A DNA stretch of 64,000 bases from Azolla caroliniana (Eukaryota; Plantae; Polypodiophyta). A program made the position numbers and the translations under genes. Where the stretch lies: positions 6,448,001-6,512,000 of the forward strand of contig JBHGNT010000018.1 of assembly GCA_043228905.1 (NCBI GenBank). Reading direction: 5' to 3'. Every line of letters starts with the position of its first letter. The first letter of the stretch is position 1. This document shows, one piece after another, positions 28,521-56,230 of this stretch. A model generated the notes under the pieces. The model saw nothing but the letters and a program-made list of their open reading frames with translations, was not told the DNA's origin and ran no database searches.

Positions 28521-31500
28521 TGTTGAGAATCAAGCTCAACTTGGTCTAGTGTGTGAACTCACCTTGAGAGTGAATAGACACTCCAACGGTCAAGAGTCAC
28601 CATTATGTCACCTCTTTGTATTCTAGCATTTAGTATGAGTCATAGAGTCATATTCTATGACACATAACTTATGAGCTTTCACATTCCCCATTCTCCATGA
28701 GTCTTGTAGTTAATGAAGAGAGAGGGTGACTATATAAAGCACCCTCCTCCCACCTTGTATTGTTGTTGAGTCTTTGTCCTTTGTTAATACAATCTACCTT
28801 GTGTATACTTTGTGTCTTACTTCTCTCTCTCTCTCATACATACACAGTTCACACCTATTCCGCTACACAAGAATCATACCCAATTCTTTACATGGTATCA
28901 GAGCGATTTGGTAGCTTGATCTAGCCCACTCGCCTCATCGTGATCGTGTGTTGTGCTCCACGCCGACGACCAAGAACCGGCTCATCGTTATCGTAGCTTC
29001 GCTACATAGCTCGCATTCGAAGATAGAAGAAGAAGAACAAGAACAAAAATCGACATAATGAATACTCAAATGGGGAGCGCCATCCCTACAGAGAAGTTGG
29101 ATCGAAACAACTTCGCATCTTGGGAGTACAAGATGCACCAATACCTTGTCGGACAAGGCTATTGGAGCTACATCAAAGGAGCACATGAAGACCGACCCGC
29201 CGAAGCGGCTCCTGGATACGCGACATGGGAGCAAGCTGCAAGCCGCGTGATGTATTGCTTGGTGACATGTGTTCACGATCACATGCTCGGCTACATTCGC
29301 GAAGCCAAGACGCCAAAGGAGGCATGGGAAAATCTAAGAAAGATTTTCACAGCGAACACAACTGCAAGAAGGCTTCAACTTCGCCAAGAGTTGAACAACA
29401 TTCAACAAAGGGACATGTCCATCATGACATACACCTCGAAGATCAAGGAGCTTTGCGATTCGCTCGGCTCAATAAGCGTAAATATCGATGATGATGAGAT
29501 GGTTCAAATATGCCTCGGCGGCCTCGCACCACGGTTCGGCGCGACGCGAACCGCCGTTCTAGCATGGGAGAAACCTCCCTCCTTCTTCGAGCTCCAATCA
29601 ATGCTATTGGTCGAAGAAAACCACGTGTGTACAAGGAGCAATGAGTCGGAAGGCCACATGCTCTACACGCACTCGAACGGAGGAAGAGGATGCGGACGGT
29701 TGAGAGGCCGATTCGGCCAAGGACAAGGCGGACGAGGTCGGAACTACGATAACAACTCCCAATTACGGCCGCAAAACGGAAGCCAACGAGGAACCTTCGC
29801 AAGAAGGGGGAGCTTCCACTCTGGCCCGAGCCCTCAAAACGCAACCGAATGTGGATATTGCGGAAAGCTCGGCTACCACGAAGAAGAGTGCCGAAAGAAG
29901 ATGCGTGAATCGGCTTCCAGAAGCCGACAACTCATGAATTACGCACACAATTCCGACTACGAAGAGTATAGCGGAATGTACGGGAACAACTCCGACTACG
30001 AAGATCGTGGCAGAATGTATGCACGCAACTCCGACTGTGGCGGAATGTTCATGATGAAACATAGAGCAAACTCTATGTCGGCCTCTACCTCAACTCGTGC
30101 CCTCAATCCGGAGGACGTATGGTTTGTTGACTCCGGAGCCTCAAACCATATGACATCCCACAAAGAATGGTTTGTTGAACTTCGAGAGCCAAACCGACCT
30201 GGCTATGTTGAAACCAGAGATGACACTACGCACCCGATTCGGCACATCGGCAATGTTCTGTTCGGCGAAAGAGGTAAGCAAACATACATTAAAAATGTCT
30301 TGCATGTTCCCACCATCACGAAGAACTTAGTCTCAGTCGGCCAAATGATTGAGCAAGGGATGCAAGTACGATTCGACCAAGAAGGGTGCTTCATCGAAAA
30401 AGAAGGCCGAATCATCGCACGCGGAAGAAGAGAGGGCCGGATGTTCATTCTCGATTCACACGAGATGAAATCTGCCATGTTTGCAGAAAGCACAAAAGCC
30501 AACTCCGACATAGAGCTATGGCACAAGCGAATCGGCCACATCAATCTCAACAAACTCAAAGCAATGAAATCGAAAGGAGTAGTCATCGGACTCCCGACAT
30601 TCAAAGAGAAGGAGATTGAAGGTGTATGCGAAGCGTGCCAATTCAGCAAGCAACACCGACACCCATTCCTGAAAGAGTGGAACGTGAGCAAAGGTCTACT
30701 TGACGTAGTCCATTCCGACGTATGGGGACCAGCGTAGACGGCTACATTCGGCGGATGCTCTTCATCGATGACTTCTCCAGGCACACTTGGATCTACCCGA
30801 TGCGGCAAAAGAGCGAAGTGTTCGGACACTTCCAAACATTCAAGAATGAAGTCGAGAAAGCCATGGGCCGACATGTACGATGCCTTTGATCGGATGGCGG
30901 CAAGGAGTACTTCTCGGACGATTTCACGACGTATCTCCGAAAGGAAGGAATTCAGCGAGAATTCACTTGCCGACACACTTCGCAACAAAACGGAGTAGCT
31001 GAGCGCAAAAATCGGCACATGCTGGAAGTAGCGTGGGCCATGATGAACAAGAAGCATATGCCCAAGTCATATTGGGCCGAAGCTGCAAATATGGCCGTCT
31101 ACCTAATGAATCGATGCACAACATCCGGCGTGCACGAGGTCACTCCGCACGAAAAGTACTTCGGAAAGAAGCCGGACTTATCGCACACCCGGATATTCGG
31201 TGTGATAACGTACGTGCACATCCCCAAAGAGAAGCGTCAAAAGCTTGACCGGATGTCGCAGAATTGTATCCTTGTAGGATACTCACTGGAGCAAAAGGGG
31301 TACAAGTGCTACAACCCTTCAACTCGAAAATCTCGAGTATGTCGAGACGTCATTTTTGACGAGTCTGCATCCTGGTATGCACTAGAGACAACTCCGCATC
31401 CGACTCCGCTCGACCCAGAATCCGCCGAACAAGAGATATAGGATGAAGATCGCCTTATGCGCATGTTCGAAGAAAGTCCGATCACGACCCGACTGAGCGG

Positions 31501-33944
31501 ACCACAAGAGCCTTTGAGCGATCAAAGCCCTCATCTCTGCAAATGAAAAGCTTCGCCGATCCACCCGTGAAAAGAACCTCGTAAGCCGATTCGGCTACAA
31601 CGATTATATGGCATACCATTAAGCCTTTATGATGAAGGTAGTGACAGTAAGGGAGCCGGTAACCTTTTCCGAAGCCGCGAAGGACCCGCGATGGATCGAA
31701 GCAATGAACGAGGAGATGCAGGCACTATGAAAGAACGAGACGTGGGATCTCATTCCCACCTCACCACACAAAAAGGCGATCGGATGCAGATGGATTTACA
31801 AAGTGAAGTACAACGCCGACGCGGAAGACAATCCGTTTCGATCACTACTTCGGCTCCGATCAAATAATCTCGATCCGATTTGATTTCCGATACGACTCCC
31901 CAGGTTCCATCAACCGCTACAAAGCGTGACTCATAGAGAAAGGCTACGCACAAACGCACGGAGTTGACTAAGAGGAGACCTTTGCCCCGGTGGCAAAGAT
32001 GACGACGGTACGAACTGTACTTGCGCTTGCCGCGGCGAAAGGGTGGCACCTCCATCAAATGGACGTCAAGAACGCCTTTCTCCAAGGAGAATTAGAAGAG
32101 GAAGGTGTACATGATCTAACCACCCGACTTCAACTTGAGCACCCATTTGAAGTTGTTTGCCGACTCAAGAAGTCACTCCACAGCCTCAAGCAAGCACCGC
32201 GTGCTTGGCATTCGAAGATAACACAATATCTTCATCAAATTGGCTTCCGTATGTCAAAATCGGACAACTCCATCTACATACGAAGTGATTTCGCAAGTCC
32301 GATCGTCATCATCTTATATGTGGATGACCTAGTCATTGGAGGTGAGCATCTCGTCGAAATCAATAATGTCAAATCCCTCCTTTCCGACAAGTTCGAGATG
32401 ACGGACATGAAGGAACTCTGGGCGGAATCATGATTTCTCAACGGCACTACATCCTTAACTTGTTATACAAGTTCAGTATGGCTAAGTGCAAATCCGTGAC
32501 AACCCTGCTCAATCGTAATCTCAAACTAGATGCGAACTCCGGCACCAAAGCGTGTGAGCCGACTCAGTATCGGCAACTCATCGGGAGTCTCATGTACCTC
32601 ACGATTACTCGACCTGATCTTAGTTATCCGGTCGGTCTCCTTAGTCAATTCATGCAAACACCGCGTGAGACTCACTTGGATTGTGCTAAGCGAGTTCTAC
32701 GATACGTGAACGACACAATGGATTGCGGCATCCTCTACAAGTCGGCAATGCCAATACGCCTCGAGGGGTACACAGACGCCGATTCGGCCTGCTACAAAGC
32801 CGATAGAAGATCAACCTCCGGATTTGTTTTCTCCCTCGGCAACGGAGCAATATCTTGGAGTAGCAAGAAGAAGCCTACCATCGCTCTTTCGAGTACGGAG
32901 GCGGAATATAGGGGCGCAGCTGTAGTTGCGTGTGAAGCCGTATGGCTCAAGAGGATTTTGAAGGATCTGGGCGTACCCATCAAGGATCCGACTTCCCTTT
33001 ATTGCGACAAAATGAGCAATATCTATCTGGCTCGGAACCCGGTGTTCCACGCGCGGACAAAGCACATCGAAGTGCACTATCACCTCATCCGAGAGTGCGT
33101 TCTAGTTGGCGATGTCGACCTACAACACATTTGCACAAATCTTCAAACGCCCGACATCTTCACTAAAGCCTTACGAGCCGACAAGCTGTGGCAATTCATG
33201 ACCGATCTCGGATTGACGATCCTTGACCTGCCAACCTTGAGGGGGAGTACTGAAGACATTACGCAATAACACGTGGATTCCGCAAACCACGCACATTACC
33301 GAATAACGTGTGGATTCCGCAAGCCGCGCACACTATGCAAGAATGCGTGGATTACGCAATCACGCAACGAAGCCGCGAAGAGCTGATCTACCGCGCAAAG
33401 CCGCGAAGAAAGACGCAAGCCGAAGCACAAACTTCGCAACTACGCACAACGCAAGCTGGAGCACGGATTCCGCAACTCCGCATAAATGCGAGTCAACGCG
33501 GACTCCGGAACGCGAGTTGAAGTGGATTTCGGATACCGTCTGAAACCGAGCCGACTTGAGCTTGAGGGGGCATGTTGAGAATCAAGCTCAACTTGGTCTA
33601 GTGTGTGAACTCACCTTGAGAGTGAATAGACACTCCAATGGTCAAGAGTCACCATTATGTCACCTCTTTGTATTCTAGCATTTAGTATGAGTCATAGAAT
33701 CATATTCTATGACACATAACTTATGAGCTTTCACATTCCCCATGCTCCATGAGTCTTGTAGTTAATGAAGAGAGAGGGTGACTATATAAAGCACTCTCCT
33801 CCCACCTTGTATTGTTGTTGAGTCTTTGTCCTTTGTTAATACAATCTACCTTGTGTATACTCTGTGTCTTACTTCTCTCTCTCTCTCATACATACACAGT
33901 TCACACCTATTCCGCTACACAAGAATCATACCCGATTCTTTACA
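28521..33944 (+). mobile_element. Full-length Ty1/copia retrotransposon (disrupted gag-pol)
   Basis: Near-identical LTRs 28521-28892 and 33573-33944; TSD GTGAG; PBS tggtatcagagc at 28893 (tRNA-iMet); PPT gaggggg; domain order gag-PR-IN-RT-RH. Confidence 0.95.
29058..33269 (+). pseudogene. gag-pol: copia gag-pol polyprotein with stops and frameshifts
   Basis: CGYCGKLGYHEEEC, WFVDSGAS, LWHKRIGH, VHSDVWGP, HQMDVKNAFL, YVDD, ALSSTEAEY, RTKHIEV. Confidence 0.9.
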
Positions 33945-41300: not shown

Positions 41301-42841
41301 GTTACCACCTGACTCAAGCAACGATCCGGCGCCGAAAGGCACGACACAAGTGGTGAACTCGACGTGAAACCGGGTGGCAAGGAGATGGAGAATCAACAAG
41401 AGGCGATGAGCATAATGATGATGATGATTGAGTGGATGCAACAAAAACAGCGTGCGATGTCGAAGATGAAGTCGGCAGTAGAGCGGCTTGTGCAACAAAA
41501 GAAGCAATTCAACGGAAATGATGTGTCACGCTATCTTCATGACTACAAGGTGGAGATGATGAGACATGGGATACCGGAATGATTGCAAGTGATATCCTTC
41601 AGTCGGGTGGCCACGGATGAGCTACAAGAGAGAATCCACAAGATATGGCAACAAAACCCGACATGGGGGTCCTTTGAAGAAGGTTTATGAGAGGCATATG
41701 ACTATGAGAGATCGAAGGGACAAGATTGACGCGAGTTCGACAAATGGGTGGTATCGGAGAAGACTGACCGAAGTGCAACACAAGCATTCCTAGAGTTCGA
41801 GCATTGTTTTGCTCGACTCTCGGAGCGGGAACAACGATTAGTGGGGGTGGATAAATTCCTAATGTTCGTAAGATCAATTGTTCGGAAAGAAAGGATGAAC
41901 ATCGGGATCAAACTCGAAGATGATGACAGTCCAAATGGCCTTACCGAGGATTGGGCTGAAGTTGAAAGAGTATGTCGAAGATATGATAAAAGGAAGACGA
42001 GAATATTGTCGGCAACAACATGGCCTACAAGGAATGATCGATTAAGGATGAATGATGTAGCCGGCATGAAGGCCGAAATACAATATGATGGTACCACGGG
42101 AGAGAGTGTGGAACAAGACACCCTCTTGTCTTGTGAAAGAACCACGACCAAGGATAAGGTCGATGACTTGAGAGTGGCGAACACCACTTCAAGAAAGGAA
42201 GAAGGTTTCGGAATACAAGTATCCGAAACATCAGGTGAAAAAGGGGTAAGCATAATCGAAGCTTGCATGATCGAGGGAGATAAAGAGTGCGAGGCAGACT
42301 TGATTGAGGAGGTCGCCACGAAAGATGACATCGAATCGGAGGTGGCTATGGACGAATCAATGGCGGATGGCCGTATAAAGACTTTCCTAGTTCTAGAGAC
42401 TTCGGCAGTTGCGTTCGAAAGACAACATGAGACCGAAGAGATGGAAGGTGGCGGAGAGAAAACGAAGGTCGAAGCCGATGCATACGACGGAGAGATAGCT
42501 GAGAAGGTGGCTATGGGTGAAACGACGGAGAATGATAATACTGAGGATTCCTGCTCACTAATCCTAGAGACTTCGGCGGTTGTGTCCGAGAAGCAACATG
42601 AGAGCGGAGAGACGGGAGATGACAGTGAGGAAGGTAAAGTCAGAAGTCGGTTCGGATGGAAGATGATCCGTCCGAAATTCCGATCTAAACGAAAGTCGAA
42701 CTGGTCAAATCCGGTGAACACGAAGAAAGGAAAGTCAACCCAGACCGAAACCTGTTGTAGGCGAGGAAGGTCGTCAATGCGGAAGATCGAGAAGCATTCG
42801 ATTCTCGCTGGATACCTGCGTATGACAGTCTCTAGGTCGTT

Positions 42842-42887
<46 letters not shown>

Positions 42888-43086
42888 AAAAGACTCTTTA
42901 TTTCACAAAGCAACAATACAACAGCCCAACCTTACAAAAAGGTTACAAGGTCACTATATATAGTGACCGACTTAGGGCAACTACCCTTTACTAGGACCAA
43001 ATGGTCGAAACAAGGAGTGCGTAGAGATAGGCACAAGACGATTAGAGGGTGCTTAAGCTAAACAAGAGAAAGTAGGCAACATACAC

Positions 43087-43126
<40 letters not shown>

Positions 43127-43172
43127 TTTTTAATTCAAAGAGGGAGAGATGTTTTAAATTCAAAGAGGGTGG

Positions 43173-43227
43173 TGGTCTTAGGCAAACTAGTTTCGCTCAA
43201 TAGTGGAGCTCTTCAGTGCAAAGACCA
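43173..43227 (-). ncRNA. Type I hammerhead ribozyme (minimal, palindromic stem III)
   Basis: Minus strand: TGGTCTT T GCA CTGAAGA GCTC cactatt GAGC GAAA C TA G TT TGC CT AAGACCA. Shows the CUGANGA/GAAA core, 4-bp stem II, bipartite stem I (3+7 bp) and GUU cleavage triplet. Confidence 0.88.
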
Positions 43228-43246
43228 TTACAACAAGAGAATGTGA

Positions 43247-43254
43247 TTTATAAA
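43247..43254 (-). promoter_or_regulatory. Candidate TATA box just upstream of the hammerhead
   Basis: TTTATAAA ~20 nt 5' of ribozyme stem I on the RT sense strand. Confidence 0.4.
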
Positions 43255-43341
43255 GGGGTGGGAAGGAAGAGGGAGTGAGAGAAAAAGGAGTGGGGAGGAT
43301 TTGATTTGTGTAGTAGATGAGAGAGAATAGAATGTGGTGAT

Positions 43342-43394
<53 letters not shown>

Positions 43395-43498
43395 GTGTGT
43401 AGGAAAGTGATAGGGAATGAGAGAAGGGAAATTAGTATAATGATGATGGTGAGGGGAGAGTTTTTAATGTGATGAAAAAGGGGGATTTGGGATAATAT

Positions 43499-43700
43499 TA
43501 AGTGGGGGATGTGGGTGAATTATTTGAAAACTTAGTGTTAAGTGGGGGATTTGGGTGGATTGTTTGAAACTTTAGTCTTAAGTGGGGGATTTGGGTGGAT
43601 TGTTTGAAAATTTAGTCTTAAGTGGGGGATTTTGGTGGATTGTTTGAAAACTTAGTTTTAAGTGGGGGATTTTGGTGGATTTTTTGAAAACTTGGTCTTA
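43499..43700 (-). repeat. Five tandem 40-bp repeats; the first overlaps the RT C-terminus and stop codon
   Basis: agtgggggat recurs at 43501, 43541, 43581, 43621 and 43661; the unit encodes KTKFSKNPPKSPT*. Confidence 0.95.
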
Positions 43701-45526
43701 ACTAGGAGGGCATGTAAGGACTTAGATTTTGTCCAACATACGAAAGGGCGTGAGATGCTTGTAAGCTCGGGATCTAACATTAAGTCATTATAGAGATTTT
43801 TTAGAAAACTATGAATGCCTAGTTTTGGGGTATGTTTGGTGTATCTAAGTTTAAAGATTGTGGGGTTAAGGGAAGTAATAGTTTTGGGTTGATATAGGAG
43901 TGTTTTTCTAAGACTAAAAGGTATTTTCTTATAGCTTTTTAGTATAAAGGATGGAGGGTAACCACGGTTAACTAGTCTATTGAAAAAGAGTTTTTTCATT
44001 TGGTAGAAACCTAATGGGGTGCTTTCTCTAATAAGATATCTCTTCACTTCATTAGTGATAAAGTGTTGTTTCGTATGGGAAGGATGATCCGATGAAAAAG
44101 GCAAGTATTGGTATGAATTGAGAGGTTTTTGAAAACAATTAAATAAGAAAGATGAATTTTCGAGGTTGATCCATATGTCTAAAAAAGGTAGCCGAAAGGG
44201 GGAAGTTTGAATGGTAAGCTTGATGGAGTTATTTGTGTGTGAAGGGTAAAAGTCGAGATATTCTAAAAGTTGAGATTTGGTGCCTGTCCAGACCCCAAAT
44301 GCATCATCAATATAGCGGGTGAAGTAGAAGAGATGGGGGGGCGATGGTTGTAAGTTTTCGAGATATACTAAAAAGAGGCATGCATATACGACTGAAAAGT
44401 TGCTACCCATGGCCGTACCTTTTATTTGTTGGTAAACTACGTCATCGAAAGTGAGATAGTGATATTCTAAAATAAGGGCACTAAGGGTATAGATGAGATT
44501 TGTTTTCGAAGGGGAAAAGTGGGGGGTGATTAGACTACGTAGGGCTTGGAGTCCTAACTTAGGGGGGATACTAGGATAGAGAGATTCAACGTCAAACGTG
44601 AATAAGAAACTATTAGATGGTGGGTGTAGGTTTTCTAGTGATTGGATTAGTGTGTGAGAGTCTTTTAGATATTGTGGTTGGAGAAGGAGGATTGGTAAAA
44701 GTTGGTGGTGTAACCACTTTGATGTTTGTTCAAATAAGGAGTTATTATATGAACAAATGGGCCGGAAACCCATAGGTGTTTTGTGTAATTTAGGGAGGAA
44801 ATAGAGGTTGGATACTTGATATCCTTTTTTGGGTTTGTGGAGGATGAAATTAGCTTCAATTGGGGAAAGTGTACCTAAGTGGTTTGTTATTATGTTATTA
44901 AGGCGGTATAGTAACTCTTCCAAGGGGAAGTGGCTGACTCTCTTATAGGTGGTAGAATTTGAGAGGTGTTCTATGGCTTTGGTGTAGTATGTGTCTTTAT
45001 CTAGAACACATACTCCCATATTTTTATCGGCTGGGAGGATGATAATGTGTTTGTTGTGTTGGAGGCTTTTAAAGGCTCTAGAGAGGTGGTATGGGATTCT
45101 AGTGTTTATGGGTTTAGTGTTGTGTGCTATTTGGTTAAGGATGTGTTGGTGTTTTTCTATTATGGAGACTAGGGGTGGATATTCTGTGGGTGGCATCCAA
45201 CTAGGGTTAGGTAGTTTGAAGGGGTTGAGAGGAAGTGAAGGTGTATTTCTAAAAAAATGTTTTAGCTTGAGGGATCTCGAGAGGTGGGTGAATTCTTTTA
45301 GGATATTGTTGGGTGAGGGAGGTGGGGATGGTAGGATATACTTAAGGCCTAGGTTTAGCAATTGTGTTTCATTTTTAGTGAGGTTATGTTTAGAGAGGTT
45401 ATGGATTTTACTATGAATTACTTGTGTACTAGTAAGAGGTTTCCAGAAGTTGGTTCTAGGTTTTTTATTTCGGGATTTGGGGTGTGAAAGGAAGGGAAAT
45501 AGTTTCTGTTTTCCCCCAAACCACAT
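43658..45526 (-). CDS. Penelope-like reverse transcriptase (622 aa from first internal Met; frame open to the insertion boundary)
   Basis: IHNLS..LT..E..LLNLGLKY, PADKNMG, YFLPKLHK, RPICS, FDVESLYPSI, QIKGTAMGS, RYIDD, LPFLDI, YLPFSSDHP, NRGYP; no GIY-YIG. The track's first 7 codons come from the host LTR. Confidence 0.9.
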   Translation of the reverse strand: MWFGGKQKLFPFLSHPKSRNKKPRTNFWKPLTSTQVIHSKIHNLSKHNLTKNETQLLNLGLKYILPSPPPSPNNILKEFTHLSRSLKLKHFFRNTPSLPLNPFKLPNPSWMPPTEYPPLVSIIEKHQHILNQIAHNTKPINTRIPYHLSRAFKSLQHNKHIIILPADKNMGVCVLDKDTYYTKAIEHLSNSTTYKRVSHFPLEELLYRLNNIITNHLGTLSPIEANFILHKPKKGYQVSNLYFLPKLHKTPMGFRPICSYNNSLFEQTSKWLHHQLLPILLLQPQYLKDSHTLIQSLENLHPPSNSFLFTFDVESLYPSIPPKLGLQALRSLITPHFSPSKTNLIYTLSALILEYHYLTFDDVVYQQIKGTAMGSNFSVVYACLFLVYLENLQPSPPHLFYFTRYIDDAFGVWTGTKSQLLEYLDFYPSHTNNSIKLTIQTSPFRLPFLDIWINLENSSFLFNCFQKPLNSYQYLPFSSDHPSHTKQHFITNEVKRYLIRESTPLGFYQMKKLFFNRLVNRGYPPSFILKSYKKIPFSLRKTLLYQPKTITSLNPTIFKLRYTKHTPKLGIHSFLKNLYNDLMLDPELTSISRPFVCWTKSKSLHALLVKTKFSKNPPKSPT

Positions 45527-45835
45527 ATATGTGTCTTGGGTGGAGGGGGATCTATTAAGTAGGTAGAATAAACGTTTGCTAATTACATAAATGGCCAAAA
45601 CGGGATAGTGTGAATACGTCCATTATACACATGTATTCGACACTCCCCCGTAATGGGCGTATACATGGGTTATCTAAGATTACAGGTATAGACTTGGGTT
45701 CTCGGACATATCAGCTTTGTTCGAGTCGGCAGGGTCCGAAGGCAGAAGACCGAACTGGTCGGGTCGGAACAGTTGAAGCCGATCATTAAGGAACTGATGT
45801 CGGTTGTCGGGGACCATCCTGCTCTGTGTCCGGCT

Positions 45836-48800
45836 CTAACCGGACTGGTTTGTCGTTACGCCCATCTGATGCCGAAGAGACCGAAAGCGGTCTGCCGAAA
45901 GACACTTGGTCATTCCATCTGCGACATTGTCGGTTGTGGATATTTTCTCTAGACCGATTTTCCCTGAGATGACGCAGTCCCGAACGAAGTGATATCGAAC
46001 GTCGATATGTTTGGAGGCGTTGTGGTGAACCGGATTTTTCGACAAGGCAACAGCACCTTGACTGTCGCTGTAGACAACTGGAGCCGAGTCATGGTCGACT
46101 TGTCGAAACGTGTGCGCCAGCCGACCGAGCCACAAAGCTTCTTTTGCTGCGTCGGACGCAGCTACATATTCTGCTTCGGTCGTTGAGGTCGCTGTGCACT
46201 CCTGAAGTTTCGACTTCCACGAGATTGCTCCATTGCCGAATTTGAAGCAGTATCCGGTTGTTGATTTCCGACTGTCTATACAGCCGGCGAAGTCCGAGTC
46301 GGTGTAACCGACTACGCCTGAGGTTCGGTTCGGACCGAAAAGAATGCCATGGTCTTTTGTGCCAGCCAGATATCTGAACACATGCTTGACTGCGTTCCAA
46401 TGCGATCGGCCAGGATTGTGCATAAATCTGCTAACGACTCCTACGGCATGAGAAATATCAGGCCGTGTCGCGACCATCAGGTACATAAGGGAGCCGACTG
46501 CCGGTGCATACGGTACCGACTTCATATCTTCCCCCTCCGAACCGGATGTCGGGCAGTCTCGCTGAGAGAGCCGAAGATTCATGGGGAGCGGGGTTGAAGC
46601 AGATTTGGCTGATTGCATGTTGAAGCGTTCCAAGACACGTCCGATATAGTCGGTCTGAGACAAAAAAAGATGTCGTTTATCGCGATGCCGACTAATCTTC
46701 ATGCCAAGGATGTGTCGTGCCGGACCGAGGTCCTTCATAGCAAACTTCAACCGCAGTTGCCGAATGAGATCGGCAAGTTCGCCCGCGTGGCGTCCAGAAA
46801 TTAGCATGTCGTCCACGTAAATGATGAGGAAGATGGGTGATCCATCTTGAGCTGTGTTGGTGAAGAGACAATGGTCCTCATCGCTTTTGGAGAAGCCGAT
46901 CGATTGGATGAAGTCGTCGAACTTCTTGTACCATTGTCGGGGTGCCTGTTTGAGGCCGTATAGACTCTTCCTGAGTCGGCAGACTAGATGTTCTTGGCCA
47001 GTTGCCACGAAGCCTTTTGGCTGCTCCATATAAATTTCCTCCTCGAGATCACCATGGAGGAAGGCTGTTTTGACATCTAGCTGAATCAGCTCCAAGTTGT
47101 CGGCTGCCACTACGCCGAGAAGAAAGCGAAGGGTTGTCATTTTCACCACTGGTGAAAAAATCTCGTCGAAGTCGACGCCATATTCTTGTCGGAAGCCCTT
47201 CGCAACTAATCTGGCCTTGTACTTTGGGGTGGTCGAATCAGACGTCTCTTTTAGTCGATAAACCCACTTGCAAGGAAGAGCACGTCGGTTCCTAGGTAAT
47301 TCGACCAGATCCCAAGTCTTGTTTGCCCGAATGGAGTGCATTTCCGACTCCATCGCCAGATGCCAGGTGGCGGAATCGACAGATGTCGATGCTTCTTCGT
47401 AAGACGTCGGTTCGCCGGCGTCGGTGAAGAAAATTCCAGGAGAATACCTCTCCGGAGGTTGCGACAGTCTCTCGGATCGTCGAGGTATGATTGGACTGGT
47501 CGCATCGGGTATCGAGGTCGGATGGTCCGAAAGCGGATTGTTCTGCTGTGCCGAGTCGGAGTTGTCCGAGTCGGTAGTGTAAGGTTCAGCTACCCGTGAA
47601 GCTGACCGTGTGTTGAGAGCGGGGCCTTCTTGAAGGGTCGGCACATCGGAAAATGTTACCCTTCGGACTTCGATCGGTTTTTCGACTGATGGATTCATAG
47701 CCGACTCGTTGAACACAACGTCCGAACTTCGGACGATTTGTGTGCGTTCGGGATCCCAGAGTCGGTATCCCATTTCGCCGTCTGATCCATATCCAAGGAA
47801 AATGCATTTCCTGGACCGAGGTGCAAGTTTTCGGCGATCATCTTTCGGAATAAGGGCGTACGCCTCGCATCCGAAGATCCTCAGCTTGTCGTAATTCGGC
47901 TTACTGCCGATCCATAGTTCCTGAGGAATTTGAAGTCCTAGAGGTCTACTTGGCGACATATTTATTATGTGTACTGCCGTGAGTAGAGCCTCTGCCCAGA
48001 AGCCATCCGACAGTCGGGAGTGTTGGAGCATGGAAACTATCCGTTCTTGGATTGTCCGATTCATTCGTTCTGCAATCCCGTTTTGCTCCGGACTGTGTGG
48101 TGCCGTAAATTCACGTCGGATGCCGCGTTGTCGGCAGAATTTGACGAATTCGTCGGATTTGAACTCTCCCCCATTGTCGGTCCGAAAGCATTTCAGTTTT
48201 CGGTCGGTTTGATTTTCTACCATAGCGAGCCAATCGGAGAAGATCGAGAAGACACGATCTTTGGTGCGAATCGGATAAGCCCACACCTTTCGAGTCGAAT
48301 CGTCAATAAAACTGACGAAGTAAGAGGCACCGCCAAGAGACTGATGAGGCATTGGGCCACAGACGTCCGAGTGGACTAAATCGAGAGGTCTCGTTTCTCT
48401 TGGTGCTGATGTCGGGTGTGATGCGGCTGCTTGTTTGCCATACTGGCAATGCTCGCAGAATTGATGGTCGGAGAAGGAGAGTTTGGGGATGTATCCGGCT
48501 CTGGATAGGTGCGTGATGCCGGCCTTGCTGAGGTGTCCTAGTCTTCGGTGCCATAGTGATGACACAGGAATATCCACCAAGAACAGGTTACCCTCTCTGA
48601 GCGTAACATGTAACGGATACAGGGAGTGTATCTTGGGTCCTCTAGCAAGCAGGAGGTTCCCCCTGTGGAGTGTCCACCCTCCCGAGGAAAAACCGGCACG
48701 AATGCCGTCTTCATCTAGTTGTCCGACTGAGATCAATGGCCTTGAGAGCTCGGGTACATGTCGGACATTGTGGAGTACAAGTGTAGAGCCACCTGCAAGG

Positions 48801-49852
48801 TTGAGCTCTACTGTGCCGATTCCGATGATGTCACAGTGTTGTGAGTTGCCGACTCGAACTGAGTCGGAGTGACGGATCGTATATTGCCGAAATTGGGATC
48901 GATGAGGAGTCACGTGAAATGACGCGCCCGAATCCAAGAGCCACGTGCTCGATTCTTCAGTCGTGAGCAGAACTTCTGATCCGACTGGATTTTCGATTGA
49001 TAGTATATTCGGGTCGTCCGGTAGTACATCAGCTGAGAAGCTGACGTAATTGATCTCCTCATGCCGGCCACTCTTCTTGTTGTTCTTGTTCTTGAGTGCG
49101 CGGCAGTCGGCTTTGATGTGTCCGGGTTTCTTGCAGTAGTTGCAGATTCGGTTATCCCGTGACTGGCTCCGTCTTCGCTGATTGTTCGGCGGTCGTGAGG
49201 AATCTCTTCCTCGTATGTTCGATCGGTCTGTCGAACCTTGTACTACGTAAGCGTCGTCTGTTGAGTCTTTGGCGAAAGACTTTCTCCGAGCTGCTTCGGT
49301 CAGGATTGCGCTCGTGACTTCGGAGTATTTAACAGCCGTGGTTGACGCGTTGCACACGGTTGTGACGAAAGTTTCCCATGATGAGGGAAGGCTGCTCATG
49401 AGTATCATTGCTCTGAGTTCATCCTCGATTGCCATCCCCTGTGACGAGATTTGGGAGCTTATGCTTTCGTACTCGTTGAGGTGTGCTTGAACCGAATCGG
49501 ATTCTTTCATCCGCAAGTTGTAGAGGCGCCGGATCAGAAACATCTTTGTTGCGGCGACCTTCTTTTCGTAAGTGTCCGACAGTGTTTTCCACAGTTCAAA
49601 TGCTGTCGTACACGATTGCACCGTAAAGTATACCGATTCCGATAGGTGCATCCGAATCGTGGCGCGGACGATTCTGTCCAGCTTCTGCCACTCAATTGGT
49701 TTGTATCCTTCTGGAGGTTCTTCATTTTCGATGGGATCGATTTGCCCCTTGACTATGAGATAGTCCTGCATTTGCTCCTTCCAGAAGTTAAAGTTCGATC
49801 CATCGAACTTTCGTAGACTCATTTCTGACGAGCCGGATGTTGATGCCATCAA
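45836..49852 (-). CDS. gag-pol: Uninterrupted copia gag-pol polyprotein (1338 aa)
   Basis: CNYCKKPGHIKADC, WLLDSGAS, LWHRRLGH, VHSDVCGP, RTDNGGEF, QNGIAER, QLDVKTAFL, YVDD, STTEAEY, KHIDVRYHF. Confidence 0.97.
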   Translation of the reverse strand: MMASTSGSSEMSLRKFDGSNFNFWKEQMQDYLIVKGQIDPIENEEPPEGYKPIEWQKLDRIVRATIRMHLSESVYFTVQSCTTAFELWKTLSDTYEKKVAATKMFLIRRLYNLRMKESDSVQAHLNEYESISSQISSQGMAIEDELRAMILMSSLPSSWETFVTTVCNASTTAVKYSEVTSAILTEAARRKSFAKDSTDDAYVVQGSTDRSNIRGRDSSRPPNNQRRRSQSRDNRICNYCKKPGHIKADCRALKNKNNKKSGRHEEINYVSFSADVLPDDPNILSIENPVGSEVLLTTEESSTWLLDSGASFHVTPHRSQFRQYTIRHSDSVRVGNSQHCDIIGIGTVELNLAGGSTLVLHNVRHVPELSRPLISVGQLDEDGIRAGFSSGGWTLHRGNLLLARGPKIHSLYPLHVTLREGNLFLVDIPVSSLWHRRLGHLSKAGITHLSRAGYIPKLSFSDHQFCEHCQYGKQAAASHPTSAPRETRPLDLVHSDVCGPMPHQSLGGASYFVSFIDDSTRKVWAYPIRTKDRVFSIFSDWLAMVENQTDRKLKCFRTDNGGEFKSDEFVKFCRQRGIRREFTAPHSPEQNGIAERMNRTIQERIVSMLQHSRLSDGFWAEALLTAVHIINMSPSRPLGLQIPQELWIGSKPNYDKLRIFGCEAYALIPKDDRRKLAPRSRKCIFLGYGSDGEMGYRLWDPERTQIVRSSDVVFNESAMNPSVEKPIEVRRVTFSDVPTLQEGPALNTRSASRVAEPYTTDSDNSDSAQQNNPLSDHPTSIPDATSPIIPRRSERLSQPPERYSPGIFFTDAGEPTSYEEASTSVDSATWHLAMESEMHSIRANKTWDLVELPRNRRALPCKWVYRLKETSDSTTPKYKARLVAKGFRQEYGVDFDEIFSPVVKMTTLRFLLGVVAADNLELIQLDVKTAFLHGDLEEEIYMEQPKGFVATGQEHLVCRLRKSLYGLKQAPRQWYKKFDDFIQSIGFSKSDEDHCLFTNTAQDGSPIFLIIYVDDMLISGRHAGELADLIRQLRLKFAMKDLGPARHILGMKISRHRDKRHLFLSQTDYIGRVLERFNMQSAKSASTPLPMNLRLSQRDCPTSGSEGEDMKSVPYAPAVGSLMYLMVATRPDISHAVGVVSRFMHNPGRSHWNAVKHVFRYLAGTKDHGILFGPNRTSGVVGYTDSDFAGCIDSRKSTTGYCFKFGNGAISWKSKLQECTATSTTEAEYVAASDAAKEALWLGRLAHTFRQVDHDSAPVVYSDSQGAVALSKNPVHHNASKHIDVRYHFVRDCVISGKIGLEKISTTDNVADGMTKCLSADRFRSLRHQMGVTTNQSG

Positions 49853-50524
49853 ATTGGGTTTCGGTTGACGAAGCTCGGTTCGGAGTTGACTACGAGCCTT
49901 GTTGGAGTGCAGCCGGTTGGCTCACCCGATATCGTTCTAGTCGGATTTGAACCCGAGTCGGTTCGGCTTCGGAACTTGCTCGAATTGACTCCGGTAACTT
50001 GAGGGACAGAACCGACTGGTCTTCCCGAATGTCGCCGAGTCGGAGTGAGCCCGGTTCGCTTCGGATATATATGCCGAATACCGATTATTGAAACCGATTA
50101 TCTGGACCGATTCGGCTTCGGTTGACTGCAGCGATGAGAGAGACGGATCCGACTGATCCTCCCGAATGTCGATCAGCCAGATGAAGCACGAATTTGGGTT
50201 GTTGTCAGAGTTGCACAAGGGGATTTCACCTCGAGCGGTTACGATCACAGGGGACAGAGTACAACCTGCTGGCTTACTCCAAGCAAGGGGATCTAACGCG
50301 ATGAGGTGCAAACCTCGTTTTTGTTCTTCTTCTCTCTTTCTTCGAATGACGCGAATACTGTGCAGGCCGTGTTGAGGTGAAGAACCGAATGCTGTGCAGG
50401 CGGTGATGACGGCCGAACCTTGCTCTGATACCAGATGTTGTAGGCGAGGAAGGTCGTCAATGCGGAAGATCGAGAAGCATTCGATTCTCGCTGGATACCT
50501 GCGTATGACAGTCTCTAGGTCGTT

Positions 50525-50555
<31 letters not shown>

Positions 50556-52080
50556 CACACACACACACACAAAAGACTCTTTATTTCACAAAGCAACAAT
50601 ACAACAGCCCAACCTTACAAAAAGGTTACAAGGTCACTATATATAGTGACCGACTTAGGGCAACTACCCTTTATGCTAATTACATAAATGGCCAAAACGG
50701 GATAGTGTGAATACGTCCATTATACACATGTATTCGACAAAACCGATGGGTCGAACCCGAACCGGAAGGGGGCCGACTCAATCGAAACCAATCAACCGAG
50801 TCCGATTTGGCCGAATACGAATCCGATCGGAAGCCGATCTAGCTGAAAACTGATCAGACAAGACCGATCCGGAAAGAAGGTAATCCGACTCAACTGGAGG
50901 TCGAAGCAATCAAGACCGGTGAACACGAGGAAGACGCCAAACAGGCACACTACCACAGACGACAAGGGCCAAGCGGATTTGAAGGGTGTTACCAAGGATG
51001 AGATCTCGACAAAGGAGGGTTATAACATGAAGATTGTCAACTCTAACATGAGATTATACGACAAAGGTGAACAAAGTGGGAAGCATGGCACATGCACAAG
51101 ACAAGAAGGGTTATATGATCAAGAGGATCACAAGGAGCCATGACAACCGGCCATAGTAATGCAAAGAGAGAACAAAGAATATGGTGGATTGGATGACGAC
51201 AATGGTTCGGGTGGAAAATATTAGAGATCTAGGTACTAAAGTAAGCTTAAGATAAGGATAAACTAATGATAGATAGAAAGGAGAAAGAGAAAGAAGGGTG
51301 CCGATCCACCCGACCACCCCCGAGCGAAGGGATCGAGACGGACTCGAGCCTCGATCGGCGTCCCATACCACCGCCGTGGCGTCGAGTCGTACCTGGTGCT
51401 GGCACGCTCACTACAAGAGTTGACCCACCACAAGAGTAGAGTCTCGATGTAGTCAAAAGATGATCAAATGAGGGTAGCTAGGCCTCTTATTTATAGCGAT
51501 ACCCAAGGCCCCTAGGCAAGTTCACACTTGACCTAATGGGTTGTCTCAATCTCGAGGATTAAAAGTAATCCTCCCTTTCTTTACACTTTCGTTTAACCCT
51601 CACACTTATCCACGTGTATAGAATACTACGGTAAATTCTCACCACGGGATATTAAATGGTCATGCCCGTAACAGAAAGAATGGATGTGCTCAAAATGGAG
51701 AGACAAAGTCGTCATAACAAGAGAAACGAAGGGGATTGCGAGTAAAAGAGAAATACGAGAGCCGGCAACGGGTAACCGGGTGGAACAAGCAACAGAAAAC
51801 CGAAAACTGGACGGAGTCGACAACTGAACAGAACCGGAAACCGGGCGGAGCCGACTACCAAGCACGACCGGCGACGAAACCAACCGGGCGGAGACCGGAC
51901 GGACAAGACTAACAATCAACAAAAGCTTCGGCACATACTAGAGGATGTGCGGGTTTGGAGGGGGCAAGTGTCATAGTGTAATTCGCACACTACATGAAAA
52001 AATGCATTTCTGGTCTCTCCGGATAGGATATGGAGTACCCGGTGAGAACCGGAAGGACGAACCGGTAAGGATCGGACCTA

Positions 52081-52575
52081 GTATCGAGTTCCTGTTTCAA
52101 GTTTACGTTTTGTACAGGAACTCGATAGGCCGTATCGAGTTCCTGTTTCAAGTTTACGTTTTGTACAGGAACTCGATATGCCGTATCGAGTTCCTGTTTC
52201 AAGTTAATGTTTTGTATAGGAACTCGATATGCCGTATCGAGTTCTTGCTTAAAGTTTGTGTTTTAAACAGGAACTCGATACGGCGTATGGAATTCCTGTA
52301 TTATGTTCGTGTTTTATACAGGAACTCATTACCCTGTATAAAACAAAACTTTATACAGGAACTCATTACCCTGTATAAAACAAAACTTTATACAGGAACT
52401 CGATACGGCGTATCGAGTTCCTATTTAAAACACAAACTTTTAACAGGAACTTGATACGATGTATCGAGTTCTTGTATAAAACCTAAACTTCAAACAGAAA
52501 CTCAATACGCCGTATCGAGTTCCTATATAAAGTTTGTATTTTATACAGGAACTCAATACGGCGTATCCAGTTCTT
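52081..52575. repeat. Array of ~33-bp palindromes at ~51-bp period
   Basis: acaggaactcgata(c/t)g(g/c)cgtatcgagttcctgt separated by ~18-nt AT-rich linkers; about 8 palindromes plus half-units. Confidence 0.9.
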
Positions 52576-53499
52576 GAGTGCTAAAACATATTTACAAAAA
52601 TGTCCACAGTGTCAGAGGCCTACTTGGAGTCTTGGTGCTCGATTTTCTTTGAAGACATGGTGATCTTGTCAAAGTTTAGGCAGAGATCACGCTTTCGTGT
52701 TTCGTGCTCTGTGTGCTCTGTTTGGTTTATGTGCTCTTGTGCTTTGTGTGATTGAAATATGACGAGGTCTTCCTATTTATAGGGATTTACTTCAGTGGTT
52801 AAAGTAACCACAGACACCTTAACCAGGGTTGGCAAGCTTGAGGTTAGTTAGTTAGTAACCATAGTCACTTTAACTAGAGTTACTTATGATTGCATCAATG
52901 ATTACAAAGTCAAACTAACATATTGATGATTATTTTATAGTCAAAATAACATACAATGACTTTGAAGTTTAGGAAGGAACAATGATAGAGGTTCATGAAT
53001 GAACCAATGATTGATTACTCAAAGCAACATTTTTATGACTCTTAATTACTTTGTATTAAAGATGTGGGCATGAATGAACCAATGATTGAAAAGTCTTATA
53101 TTTAAAATGGTTGGCATGAATGAACCAATGACTGAGAAGTTCTATATTAAATATGGGTGCCATTAATTAACCAATGATTTTAACTTTAATCCAACATATA
53201 TATGGCTTTGTAATGATTGTAATTATATTTTACTTGATTTAACTTTATACAGACTAGTTTAAGTAATTATTAATATGTTGATTACAATTATTATATTAAA
53301 AATAATATCTTTATGTATTGTATTAATATATTATTAAATAATATAGATATTATATTGAGGGAGCTTCTGTTTAGAGAGGACTATATGTTTAGAGAGGAGC
53401 TTATCAGTTTTTTATGTTAGCCTAAGCACATAACTTAAAGAGCTCTATGTGGACCTTAAGCCATGAGTGAAGATTCACTGTTCTCGATTGAAGAATATT

Positions 53500-56230
53500 G
53501 TTTGTCATCAGATTCCTCGTTTTCTACCGAAGAGTATTGTTTGTCGACAGGTTTTTTATTGAGGAATATTGTCTGTCGACAGACTCACCATATTCTATCG
53601 AAGAGTATTGTCTGAGCTCATCTTCACCTATAACGAATGTGAATAATGACACATGTGAAGAGTTCTCTATTGAAGAATACAATATTAATAAAGATACGGA
53701 GAATGAAGGTAGTGCCAATGAAACATCGAATATCATGGGTGATGGTCACAACAAAGAATTGGATAGTAACAATGTTACACCAACTTCAATGCAGGAAGAG
53801 AAATCCGAAAGCATTATCCATATTAGAAGAATCCCACAAAGAATTTGTCTGGCTAGATTTAACTTGGTGACATCAGATAAATAGATTGGATTGGATGTCA
53901 AAAAAATATGTTGTGCCCGTGGTTGTATGTCTATGATTGGAAAATCAAAGTTGTGAGAATTAAGGTGATACTATTTTTCGATGACTGGTGATGAGCAAGA
54001 CACTTACCTCGGGTCACATATGCAACTAGTGTCTGACAAATGTACGGGGATCAAAGTATCATTCGAGTATTATATCTTCCATGCACAACAGATATGTAGA
54101 GTTGCATTTAAAATTTTGTTATGTGTTAGTAACATGTGGCTACATAGAGTACAACAACGTCTACTTAGCGGGGATCAGATGCTCAATTGTAAAGAGGTTC
54201 CAAGTATGAAAGGTGCAACATGCTATTGGTTGGATGAAAAATTAGTTTCAGTTAAATTGTGAAGTAATGCCCACTACAAGTAGGATACACCTCTCTGATA
54301 ATTACACACGTTGAGAATTTTATGATGTCTATCGATCTGATATGGTGGGGTCACGTAATAACTCTGTCACATATAGCCAATTCACAAGATTATGGAGAGC
54401 TCAGTTTTCAAATGTTATCATTCCACGTAAAGTACGCATGGGGTATTGCTCCATTTGTGCAAATCTTAAAAGTTTGGCTAAAGGTGCAAAGACATCAATG
54501 GAAAAGGATATGAGTAAGAAGTTACTACAAGAGCACCGTGAAGCACAATCATTAGAAATGAAAGAAGGAGATGCATCATAGAGAGAAGTGTTTGAAGAGG
54601 CCCGAACAATACATGTGCTTAATGATAGATGGCATGGACTAGAAGAAGACGTGATTGCCGCATATGCGGAGGCTCCCCAAAGATGTCAATGATGAGTGCC
54701 TTATTCAAATGCACTTGGTGGGATGCTTGGCTTATAATAGGTCAGTTGGACCTCACGTCTTCATTACATATCCCAATGTTCACAATGACCCTAACCTAAT
54801 AGTTACAGTGATTCACCGAGTTTTGATGTCTTGGGGCCAATCTTTCCCCCCTGTTCTATACATTCAATTGGACAATATTGCTAGAGAGAACAAAAATTCA
54901 ACTGTGCTTGGCTATCTAAGTATATTGATCAACCAAGGATTGTTTAGAAAAGGGAAAGTCCATTTTCTTTTGGTTGGCCACACACATGATCATATAGATC
55001 AGATGTTTACCACATTCTCCAAACAATTGTCTCGGCATGATGCTTTCACATTACCTAAACTATTTGATGTCATTTGTGATGCATATACACCATGCCCAAA
55101 AGTGTTACACTTGAAGGAGGTATATGACTTTAAGAGATATATATCAGATGGGGGTGTTGGGAATGTTAAAGTGCTCGCCTAGTTAAACAATATAAGCTTC
55201 AATCACATTTTTATGATAAAGAAAAATGAAATAAGTGGTTCTATGCTTTTGTATGCTAAACAATATTCATCTTCTACAACATGGGAACCTGAAGGTGGTT
55301 GCCAGTTACTACTTTATATGCCGAGTACAATTGTCCACGGATCTAAGCAAATGCCAATTGAGAAGAAAGGACAGTTGCATAGTGACTTGGTATCGGAACA
55401 AAAACGATTATGGTTGCAAGCCTTAGAAGAAAAAAGAAAGCATGTTGAGGCCGCCAAGAAATATGCCGCACAACAAGACACGTCATGGTGGGATGTATTT
55501 TATAGTGATTAGAAAGGAATTATAGACAATTGTGTATTTGGTGATAATTGGAATTTGGAAACGCCATTCACATGGTCGCTGCAACATGATGGTGTAAATA
55601 AAACTCCAGAGCAACCAACAAATGCGATTAATGACAGTTTGGTCCATCCACAACAAAGAGACATTTATGTGGGACCAAGGATGACCAAAGCAGCCGAAGC
55701 TAGATGGCAAGGCAATTTGCAAGAGCTCACGACGGGGATGTTGATTGCAACACCGGCTGATGAGAACTCACATGGCCACCAATTTTGGGTTGGTAAAATT
55801 CTAGAAGTGCTAATGCATTAAATAGAAAACACGATCAAGTCTATAAACGTTCATTGGTACAACAGTAGAAGTGCAAATGCTTTTACAGGTAAGTATACAT
55901 TGGAGATGATTGAATGCCCAGCAACAAGGGGAGGTAGGAAGAGGAAGCGAAACATTCGTAATACCTCGACCCTTGATATCTCTAATGTGGATATCATTGT
56001 GTACGACTTTGCGCTTACAAAAGCCGGACGATTAAGGAAGTCAACAATAGATATAATAAAAGAAAAATTACCAAGTCTACAAGGTGGCTCAAGTCAAAGG
56101 CAAACGAGATCTGCTACATATAATCTAGAGTCAAACCATTTGGTTTATGACGAAGATAATGCACTGATTGGTACATCCGAGGATGCCGAGGAGGAATCAT
56201 CATTGTATATTAGTTATAGTAGTTATAGTA
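53500..56230 (+). pseudogene. Degenerate DNA transposase, Sola-like/DUF7869-type
   Basis: ICCARGC, GYCSICANL, MIDGMD, YIQLDNIARENKN, FLLVGHTHDHIDQMF motifs across frameshifted ORFs; C-terminal FWVGKI..VHWY. Superfamily assignment is from memory of motifs. Confidence 0.65.

What the first reader, a model, noticed from the sequence alone, without database searches (positions are those of the whole stretch)
43173..43227. Type I hammerhead ribozyme with palindromic stem III, predicted to cleave as a dimer
Seen: complete core (CUGAAGA, GAAA, GUU), stem II GCUC/GAGC, and stem I GCA/UGC extended by UGGUCUU/AAGACCA. It is on the RT sense strand ~430 nt past the stop. Stem III is only AC-UA-GU, within the palindrome AACUAGUU. 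Established: PLE pseudo-LTRs carry minimal hammerheads with palindromic stem III that work as dimers. Inference: it processes tandem or multimeric element transcripts, possibly into circular RNAs.
Basis: partly seen in the sequence, partly recalled or inferred. Interest (0 to 1): 0.85.

Follow-up and report, generated by a model that had tools for sequence, protein, structure and literature searches.

The report
Dimer hammerhead in plant Penelope retroelement
This is a real, family-wide conserved hammerhead motif at the end of a plant jumping gene that lacks a DNA-cutting enzyme; it likely cuts its RNA only when two copies pair, a kind already known from a spikemoss, and one related copy starts exactly at the predicted cut.

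Summary
Observation confirmed: a type I hammerhead on the minus strand, 431 nt past the stop of an intact 622-aa Penelope-like (PLE) reverse transcriptase with no endonuclease. 49 of 70 related loci carry it, always on the RT sense strand. The four bases inside helix III are palindromic in all 51 true hits, in five spellings (CUAG, CAUG, UGCA, CCGG, CGCG), which supports the double-hammerhead model. Full relatives are ~5-kb head-to-tail units (ORF1 + RT), grouping with Selaginella, Ginkgo and Cryptomeria RTs. The window copy is a lone, 5'-truncated insertion into the 3' LTR of a young copia, with microhomologies and no target duplication, so it has no partner in cis. Additions: a TATA box 36-39 nt before the core; 3' ends that cluster 175-445 nt past the cut site, after a conserved motif and hairpin, never at the cut; one genomic copy whose 5' end lies exactly at the predicted cut (43184); a telomere-joined sister subfamily. 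Cleavage, expression and circles are untested. New member of a known kind; useful for testing what PLE hammerheads do in vivo.

The parts
43173..43227 (-). Type I hammerhead motif; C3 at 43216; predicted cut between 43185 (U17) and 43184
43185..43192 (-). Palindrome AACUAGUU; ACUAGU (43191-43186) is predicted to form a 6-bp helix III between two copies
43247..43254 (-). TATA-like box (TTTATAAA) at conserved spacing upstream of the core; likely pseudo-LTR promoter
   Evidence: (36 of 51 at 36-39 nt, 8 more at 51-53 nt; background 25 of 1672 windows)
42995..43021 (-). Conserved CGCACUCCUUG motif (43021-43011) and 4-bp hairpin GACC-AUUU-GGUC (43006-42995), just before the clustered 3' ends; likely start signal for reverse transcription
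43658..45526 (-). Intact 622-aa PLE reverse transcriptase ORF (ATG at 45526), DKN motif, YIDD; no GIY-YIG, no CxC, no insertion in fingers
42988..45581 (-). Whole PLE insertion (42991-45576 plus microhomologies of 3 nt at the 3' end and 5 nt at the 5' end); 5'-truncated 55 nt before the RT ATG, ORF1 missing
43493..43706 (-). 40-bp tandem repeats overlapping the RT stop codon
   Evidence: (family D14)
42753..42990 (-). Host copia 3' LTR, distal 238-nt piece
45577..45642 (-). Host copia 3' LTR, proximal 66-nt piece; polypurine tract follows at about 45643-45650
45836..49852 (-). Host copia gag-pol ORF, 1338 aa
50436..50739 (-). Host copia 5' LTR, uninterrupted; target duplication AAACC at 42748-42752 and 50740-50744

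Best explanation
The motif is a conserved type I hammerhead in the pseudo-LTR of an endonuclease-less, two-ORF Penelope-like retroelement of a land plant, and it likely cleaves only as a double hammerhead, in which two copies pair through the ACUAGU palindrome. Shown: motif, conservation, compensatory palindrome, tandem ~5-kb units, junction positions. Inferred: transcription starts about 6-10 nt before the core, from the TATA box of an upstream pseudo-LTR; the RNA carries a hammerhead at each end; pairing of the two cuts after GUU, which would set the RNA's 5' end (one copy begins exactly there). The downstream site mostly stays uncut or is re-ligated, because copying starts internally about 175-200 nt further on (in this subfamily), after the CGCACUCCU motif and hairpin. 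The RT would prime on a free DNA end: a telomere in one subfamily, a chromosomal break with 3-5 nt microhomology in the window's. The window copy is a 5'-truncated dead end with one hammerhead, which could cut only with a partner RNA in trans.
For: Conservation: 52 descriptor hits on the sense strand and none on the antisense strand of 70 loci plus the window stretch; 51 have a palindromic 4-mer (CTAG 28, CATG 8, TGCA 7, CCGG 4, CGCG 4); the exception (L035) has no stems. In 29 distinct copies the central pair is UA 17, GC 6, AU 4, CG 2, 100% complementary; 7 of 9 pairs show two-sided changes, and slid controls fall to 28-44% paired. Energies: double-hammerhead fold -33.2 kcal/mol against 2 x -13.9 for monomers without helix III; a 1-bp helix III costs about 5.7 kcal/mol; 22 of 32 distinct copies form the 6-bp intermolecular helix in the cofold minimum. 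Tandems: 8 loci read RT end, hammerhead, RT start in one contig, and L050 has two hammerheads 5139 nt apart. One contig in each of two runs leaves the element exactly after 43184 into near-identical foreign sequence, probably one locus. 3' ends: 9 of 24 junctions lie 29-52 nt after the motif. Precedent: PMC4209133 (dimer model, Selaginella hammerheads), PMC7229834 (axolotl motifs cleave better as dimers), PMC11167929 (internal initiation in a PLE).
Against: No cleavage or expression data. The monomer and dimer minimum-energy folds both pair part of the core, so the active fold is not the predicted minimum; 10 of 32 copies do not form the intermolecular helix in the cofold minimum. In a 5-kb RNA the two copies are far apart. 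0 of 24 5' junctions and 0 of 24 3' junctions in the loci fall at the cut; L004 begins 11 nt upstream of it and a run-X7 contig 10 nt upstream, so many templates were uncut or re-joined. The exact-site copy is one event. Loci are collapsed assemblies from related samples (28 distinct cores among 52 hits), so counts overstate independence; the five palindromes need at least four changes. PMC11167929 found hammerhead cleavage dispensable for insertion in vitro, dependent on protein, and no RNA-seq reads ending at the site. No loop I-loop II tertiary contact was identified.
Confidence: 0.72

Rival explanations
1. It cleaves as a monomer with help from the element's protein or a host chaperone, and the palindrome is incidental or secondary.
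For: The Anolis PLE hammerhead is protein-assisted (PMC11167929, passages). Two copies 5 kb apart may rarely meet. Stems I and II form in the monomer.
Against: A 2-nt loop cannot close; all 51 true copies keep a self-complementary loop in four dinucleotide spellings, which a monomer would not need.
Confidence: 0.1
2. Double cleavage releases a unit-length RNA that is circularised, and reverse transcription around the circle makes more-than-unit copies that rebuild the promoter. This is a stronger version of the best explanation, not exclusive of it.
For: Copies run through the cut site in both directions: 3' ends lie beyond it, and 5' ends lie at -11 (L004), about -120 (L017/L019), -313 (L050) and -317 (L005), upstream of the inferred start site. 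Head-to-tail tandems are common. Proposed in PMC4209133.
Against: Read-through transcripts of tandem arrays give the same junctions. If transcription starts inside stem I, the upstream copy lacks most of the strand needed to cut the downstream site. No RNA evidence.
Confidence: 0.3
3. The motif is kept as a dimerisation or RT-binding structure, and cleavage is slow or irrelevant to retrotransposition.
For: Most insertions derive from templates intact across the site. Catalytic mutants did not affect insertion in vitro for another PLE (PMC11167929); Naiads thrive without canonical hammerheads (PMC8557442).
Against: All catalytic core bases are invariant across RTs down to 27% identity, while position 7 and H17 vary as catalysis allows; one copy starts exactly at the cut.
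Confidence: 0.13
4. Chance motif or assembly artefact.
For: Rfam score far below cut-off; a loose descriptor hits 9.5% of window mimics. No listed contig spans the filled junction.
Against: 49 loci carry it at the same place and strand; four runs hold near-identical sequence; L001 differs from the window copy at 18 positions over about 2.56 kb, plus repeat-length gaps.
Confidence: 0.02

Closest known systems
Endonuclease-deficient PLEs of Selaginella moellendorffii (Coprina Sm1/Sm2) with canonical type I hammerheads (PMC4209133; clade names from PMC13159263)
   Same: Land-plant PLE RT without GIY-YIG; type I hammerhead in the pseudo-LTR; a Selaginella protein (P0024, 38% identical) sits in the same clade, support 99; a sister subfamily is joined to CCCTAAA arrays.
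   Different: The paper gives canonical helix I as 6 bp with tertiary-contact bases; here the proximal helix I is 3-5 bp followed by an internal loop, and no contact was identified. The window's subfamily has no telomere complement at its 3' end and sits at internal sites. Two ORFs (also reported for fungal Coprina-1_Alen). I could not see the Selaginella motif's sequence (figure), nor confirm that P0024 is Sm1 or Sm2.
Dimer-dependent type I hammerheads of animal PLEs and non-LTR retrozymes (PMC4209133, PMC7229834)
   Same: 1-2 bp helix III with palindromic loop; tandem context.
   Different: Here the repeat unit is ~5 kb and autonomous, not 170-400 nt and non-coding.
PLE-X of Selaginella and Chara (PMC8557442)
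   Same: Plant, endonuclease-less, canonical hammerhead, non-telomeric insertion.
   Different: PLE-X proteins carry the CxC motif and belong with Chlamys (insertion in fingers); this RT has neither and shows no rDNA targeting in the flanks seen.
Poseidon PAc of Anolis (PMC11167929)
   Same: Reverse transcription starting internally at a defined RNA site; hammerhead in the pseudo-LTR.
   Different: PAc has a GIY-YIG endonuclease and one ORF that overlaps the hammerhead.
Athena/Terminons of rotifers (PMC6431247)
   Same: ORF1 plus RT, no endonuclease, head-to-tail arrays, 3' hammerhead with reverse-complement telomeric repeat (sister subfamily).
   Different: There the telomeric stretch is immediately downstream of the hammerhead; here it is about 430 nt downstream (L027, L028, L031) or absent.

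Membership tests
Type I hammerhead ribozyme | Core C3-U4-G5-A6-N7-G8-A9, G12-A13-A14, A15.1-U16.1, H17 | tested here: met
   invariant in 29 of 29 aligned copies
Type I hammerhead ribozyme | Helices I and II with covariation; helix I open | tested here: met
   helix I 97.7% and helix II 93.1% paired, 5 of 6 pairs with two-sided changes
Type I hammerhead ribozyme | Rfam gathering score | tested here: not met
   HH9 15.2 bits against 52; that model has a longer helix I and III
Type I hammerhead ribozyme | Self-cleavage | not testable with these tools
   indirect only: one genomic 5' junction at 43184
Type I hammerhead ribozyme | Loop I-loop II tertiary contact | tested here: inconclusive
   loop II is variable in the alignment; no contact identified by eye
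Dimer-dependent (double) hammerhead | Helix III too short to close, palindromic | tested here: met
   51 of 51 true hits, five spellings
Dimer-dependent (double) hammerhead | Second copy on the same transcript | tested here: inconclusive
   not met for the window copy; met at DNA level for relatives in tandem
Penelope-like element | PLE-type RT (DKN motif, RT core, thumb), pseudo-LTR, tandem copies, 5' truncation | tested here: met
EN-minus PLE, Coprina group | No GIY-YIG endonuclease | tested here: met
   ORF ends after the thumb; no GIY motif or Pfam hit; close homologues 602-636 aa without PF01541
EN-minus PLE, Coprina group | RT falls in the Coprina clade | tested here: inconclusive
   groups with Selaginella, Ginkgo and Cryptomeria proteins, apart from all 17 rows labelled GIY-YIG, but no named Coprina reference was in the tree; FastTree supports only
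EN-minus PLE, Coprina group | Telomere association through a reverse-complement telomeric stretch at the 3' end | tested here: inconclusive
   met for L031 (3' end) and L033 (5' cap); not met for the window copy, with no telomeric repeat in 64 kb
PLE-X / Chlamys / Naiad | CxC motif and insertion in fingers | tested here: not met
   no CxC; motif A to B' spacing 58 aa
Dryad (EN+ PLE of conifers) | C-terminal GIY-YIG | tested here: not met
Plant LTR retrozyme | Type III hammerhead in both LTRs of a non-coding element | tested here: not met
   type I; absent from the copia 5' LTR; part of an RT-coding insert

The most novel reading that the evidence does not exclude
A widespread land-plant lineage of Coprina-like elements has shifted from telomeres to patching internal DNA breaks without any endonuclease. 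Its pseudo-LTR works as a TATA-hammerhead-priming-hairpin cassette, in which transcription starts inside stem I, so that the double hammerhead cuts asymmetrically: it trims the capped 5' end but spares the 3' end that holds the reverse-transcription start. Genomic copies beginning exactly at the cut would be in vivo footprints of PLE hammerhead cleavage.
Probability: 0.3. Interest if true: 0.68.

Novelty: new member of a known kind. Interest (0 to 1): 0.42.

Why it matters
What PLE hammerheads do in vivo is open: PMC8557442 calls it unclear, and PMC11167929 found cleavage dispensable in vitro with no reads at the site. This family is young (intact ORFs, near-identical copies, inserted into a copia with identical LTRs) and offers natural compensatory palindromes, a mappable promoter, clustered ends, and telomeric and non-telomeric sister subfamilies. 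That makes the dimer, circle and asymmetric-cut models directly testable. The motif itself would not surprise a specialist.

Tried and rejected
Rfam at gathering score found nothing. Pfam here found nothing in the RT or in ORF1, although homologues carry precomputed PF00078/PF28514/PF26215. No whole genome was held, so no genome-wide copy census. Viral contigs: no relative. Sequencing runs: no RNA holder listed; the one guessed-RNA run laid gave nothing; neither bears on expression. No listed contig spans the filled copia/PLE junction in the runs laid; a hole proves nothing. Host lineage: the copia search gave nothing above 60% identity, so 'land plant' is all I show; 'fern' comes only from an earlier unchecked note. 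ORF1 homologue search gave 4 unnamed proteins; the Atlas gave DUF8422 clusters at 0.82-0.83, a lead only. First pair count had the structure off by one column and is discarded in favour. The maximum-likelihood tree did not finish; FastTree was used. Rejected: that the RT is a captured extra gene of the copia (the insert splits one LTR only); that the ORF is 646 aa (the first 24 codons are LTR and 5' UTR); that 42753-43081 is the LTR. Papers not held: Gladyshev and Arkhipova 2007, Arkhipova 2017, Lin 2016; they may already describe internal insertions, ORF1 or end signals of plant EN-minus PLEs.

Full report
Observation. The minus strand at 43227-43173 holds a complete hammerhead core with stem II GCUC/GAGC, stem I GCA/UGC, an internal loop, a 7-bp extension, and only AC-UA-GU as helix III. 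It lies 431 nt after the stop of an ORF at 43658. Rfam gives no gathering-score match in the window and a weak HH9 match (15.2 bits, E 1.4) locally. One descriptor hit exists in the window; mimic sequences give 0.105 loose hits on average and 0 of 200 with the palindrome.

The element. The ORF starts at ATG 45526 and encodes 622 aa, the length of its closest homologue (93% identical). It has the DKN motif and YIDD, no CxC, no GIY-YIG, and 58 residues between motifs A and B'. In a FastTree of 93 rows (proteins of at least 440 aa except P0083, 16 locus RTs and the window's), it sits in a 40-row clade, support 99, with a Selaginella, a Ginkgo and four Cryptomeria proteins and none of the 17 rows labelled GIY-YIG. 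No named Coprina sequence was available, so the clade name is inferred. The host is a land plant; its lineage was not resolved.

Insertion site. The element occupies 42991-45576 inside the 3' LTR of a copia on the same strand. The two LTR pieces (238 + 66 nt) equal the 304-nt 5' LTR except for 6 positions in a microsatellite, and the copia has the target duplication AAACC. Other runs show the empty joint 42990 to 45577 (expected from any intact LTR of the family). There is no duplication or deletion at the PLE site; there are 3 nt of microhomology at the 3' end and 5 nt at the 5' end, which is cut off 55 nt before the ATG. No telomeric repeat occurs in the 64 kb. I infer a very recent, endonuclease-independent insertion at a break.

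Relatives. 70 loci were fetched. A descriptor found 52 sense-strand hits and no antisense hit; 50 loci had a hit, one of them (L035) without stems; 20 loci had none, most of them short or cut downstream, some truncated (L004, L009) or degenerate (L038). The cut site lies 144-1094 nt after the RT. Full units carry an upstream ORF1 of about 750-900 aa with Asn-Pro repeats and are about 5 kb (L003 repeats at 4976 nt). Eight loci show RT, hammerhead, next RT in tandem, and L050 has two hammerheads around ORF1 and RT. These contigs are collapsed repeats from related samples: 28 distinct cores.

Dimer evidence. All 51 true hits have a palindromic 4-mer in helix III, in five spellings. In 29 distinct aligned copies the core is invariant, 96.9% of cells pair, 7 of 9 pairs change on both sides, and the central pair is UA, GC, AU or CG and never unpaired (the shuffle control ignores relatedness, the slid control gives 28-44%). 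For the window copy the double-hammerhead fold scores -33.2 kcal/mol against -27.8 for two monomers without helix III; 22 of 32 distinct copies form the 6-bp intermolecular helix in their cofold minimum, 10 do not; the minima also pair part of the core.

Promoter and ends. TATAWA starts 36-39 nt before C3 in 36 of 51 copies and 51-53 nt before it in 8 more, against 25 of 1672 background windows. With the usual spacing of about 30 nt (recalled), transcription would start 6-10 nt before the core, inside the 5' strand of stem I. A TATA box in a pLTR was noted for rotifer Penelopes (PMC3846280, passages). A CGCACUCCU motif and a small hairpin precede ORF1 in the closer subfamilies. Of 24 3' junctions that I picked, none is at the cut and 9 lie 29-52 nt after the motif (L046 read, L038 through L013); the rest lie in a microsatellite, in ORF1, or in or just after the RT. 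In three runs 3, 2 and 12 contigs run on before 42988 with low agreement, as many different flanks would. Of 24 5' junctions none is at the cut; L004 is at -11. In the runs, one contig each in X5 and X7 leaves the element exactly after 43184 into near-identical foreign sequence with no homology to the element: a copy whose 5' end is the predicted cleavage product end, probably one locus. Five distinct non-repeat places of this kind were listed in about 330 nt, five more rows were not shown, so an exact hit by chance is about 1.5-3% (my estimate).

Telomeres. In one subfamily (63-65% identical RT) the stretch after the hairpin reads CTAAACCCTAAACCC; L031 continues from it into a CCCTAAA array and L033 is capped by one at its 5' end. 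The window's subfamily lacks that stretch, and the 3' flanks of the window, L001, L003, L024, L032, L037, L038, L046 and L060 are not telomeric, though short contigs could still be subtelomeric.

Mechanism. Most likely the RNA from an upstream pseudo-LTR carries two hammerheads that pair through the palindrome and cut after GUU. The upstream cut would set the 5' end. The downstream site is mostly uncut or re-joined, as copying starts past it at the hairpin. The RT primes on a telomere or a break. Circles remain possible but are not needed, as tandem read-through explains the same junctions. The window copy lacks ORF1 and a partner.

What is known. PMC4209133 (parts 1-2 of 4 read, supplement text searched, figures not seen) reports canonical type I hammerheads in Selaginella EN-minus PLEs and proposes dimers and circles. 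PMC8557442 (passages, section 9) describes Coprina, Athena and PLE-X. PMC9033089 (passages) lists EN-minus PLEs in Selaginella, pine and spruce. PMC13159263 (passages) gives a two-ORF Coprina. PMC11167929, PMC6431247, PMC7229834 (passages) and bioRxiv 10.64898/2026.07.22.740005 (part 1 of 5) supply the other comparisons. Nine paper searches showed no description of this family, but three key papers were not held and the Craig supplements were not read, so I do not claim it is unpublished. Two unchecked notes on the same genome reach similar readings; I had the motif and break reading before seeing them, and they are not independent support.

Verdict. Real, conserved, correctly read in outline; a new member of a known kind, interest 0.42.

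Noticed in passing
window 42753-50739: Young copia with LTRs identical outside a microsatellite, target duplication AAACC and an open 1338-aa ORF, nested in an older LTR-element remnant.
   Followed up: yes
window 45577/42990: The PLE sits in sense orientation 66 nt into the copia 3' LTR, upstream of the LTR's TATA-like box, so probably in U3. A further round of copia transposition would copy the hammerhead-bearing insert into both LTRs, a possible route to ribozyme-bearing LTR elements. Speculation.
   Followed up: no
L002-L031, ORF1: ORF1 Asn-Pro repeats are encoded by (CCCTAA)n, the complement of TTAGGG; the 3' junction of L013 falls at the end of such a run. Function unknown.
   Followed up: partly
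L064-L067: GC-rich relatives with only 27% RT identity keep the same layout, with a CGCG palindrome, an extra U before stem II and no TATAWA box.
   Followed up: partly
L004 995-996 and 5664: A copy running from 11 nt before the cut site to just after the RT stop, inserted right before what looks by eye like a homeobox gene (recalled motif; the one fragment scanned gave no Pfam hit).
   Followed up: partly
L004 and run X7 at 43194-43195: Two independent 5' junctions at the 3' foot of stem II, as if reverse transcription stalls at that hairpin.
   Followed up: no
window 28521-33872: Second copia with 98% identical LTRs.
   Followed up: no
window 21534-25409: LINE remnant with endonuclease and RT ORFs.
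   Followed up: no
window 54655-55182: ORF with DUF7869, E 1e-46.
   Followed up: no
window 52058-52617: 51-bp tandem repeat whose units also match in inverted orientation.
   Followed up: no
window 43126-43170: A short duplication just downstream of the hammerhead, absent from L001.
   Followed up: no
L061 1-1456: Self-inverted RT sequence, like the inverted 5'-truncated copies described for PLEs.
   Followed up: no
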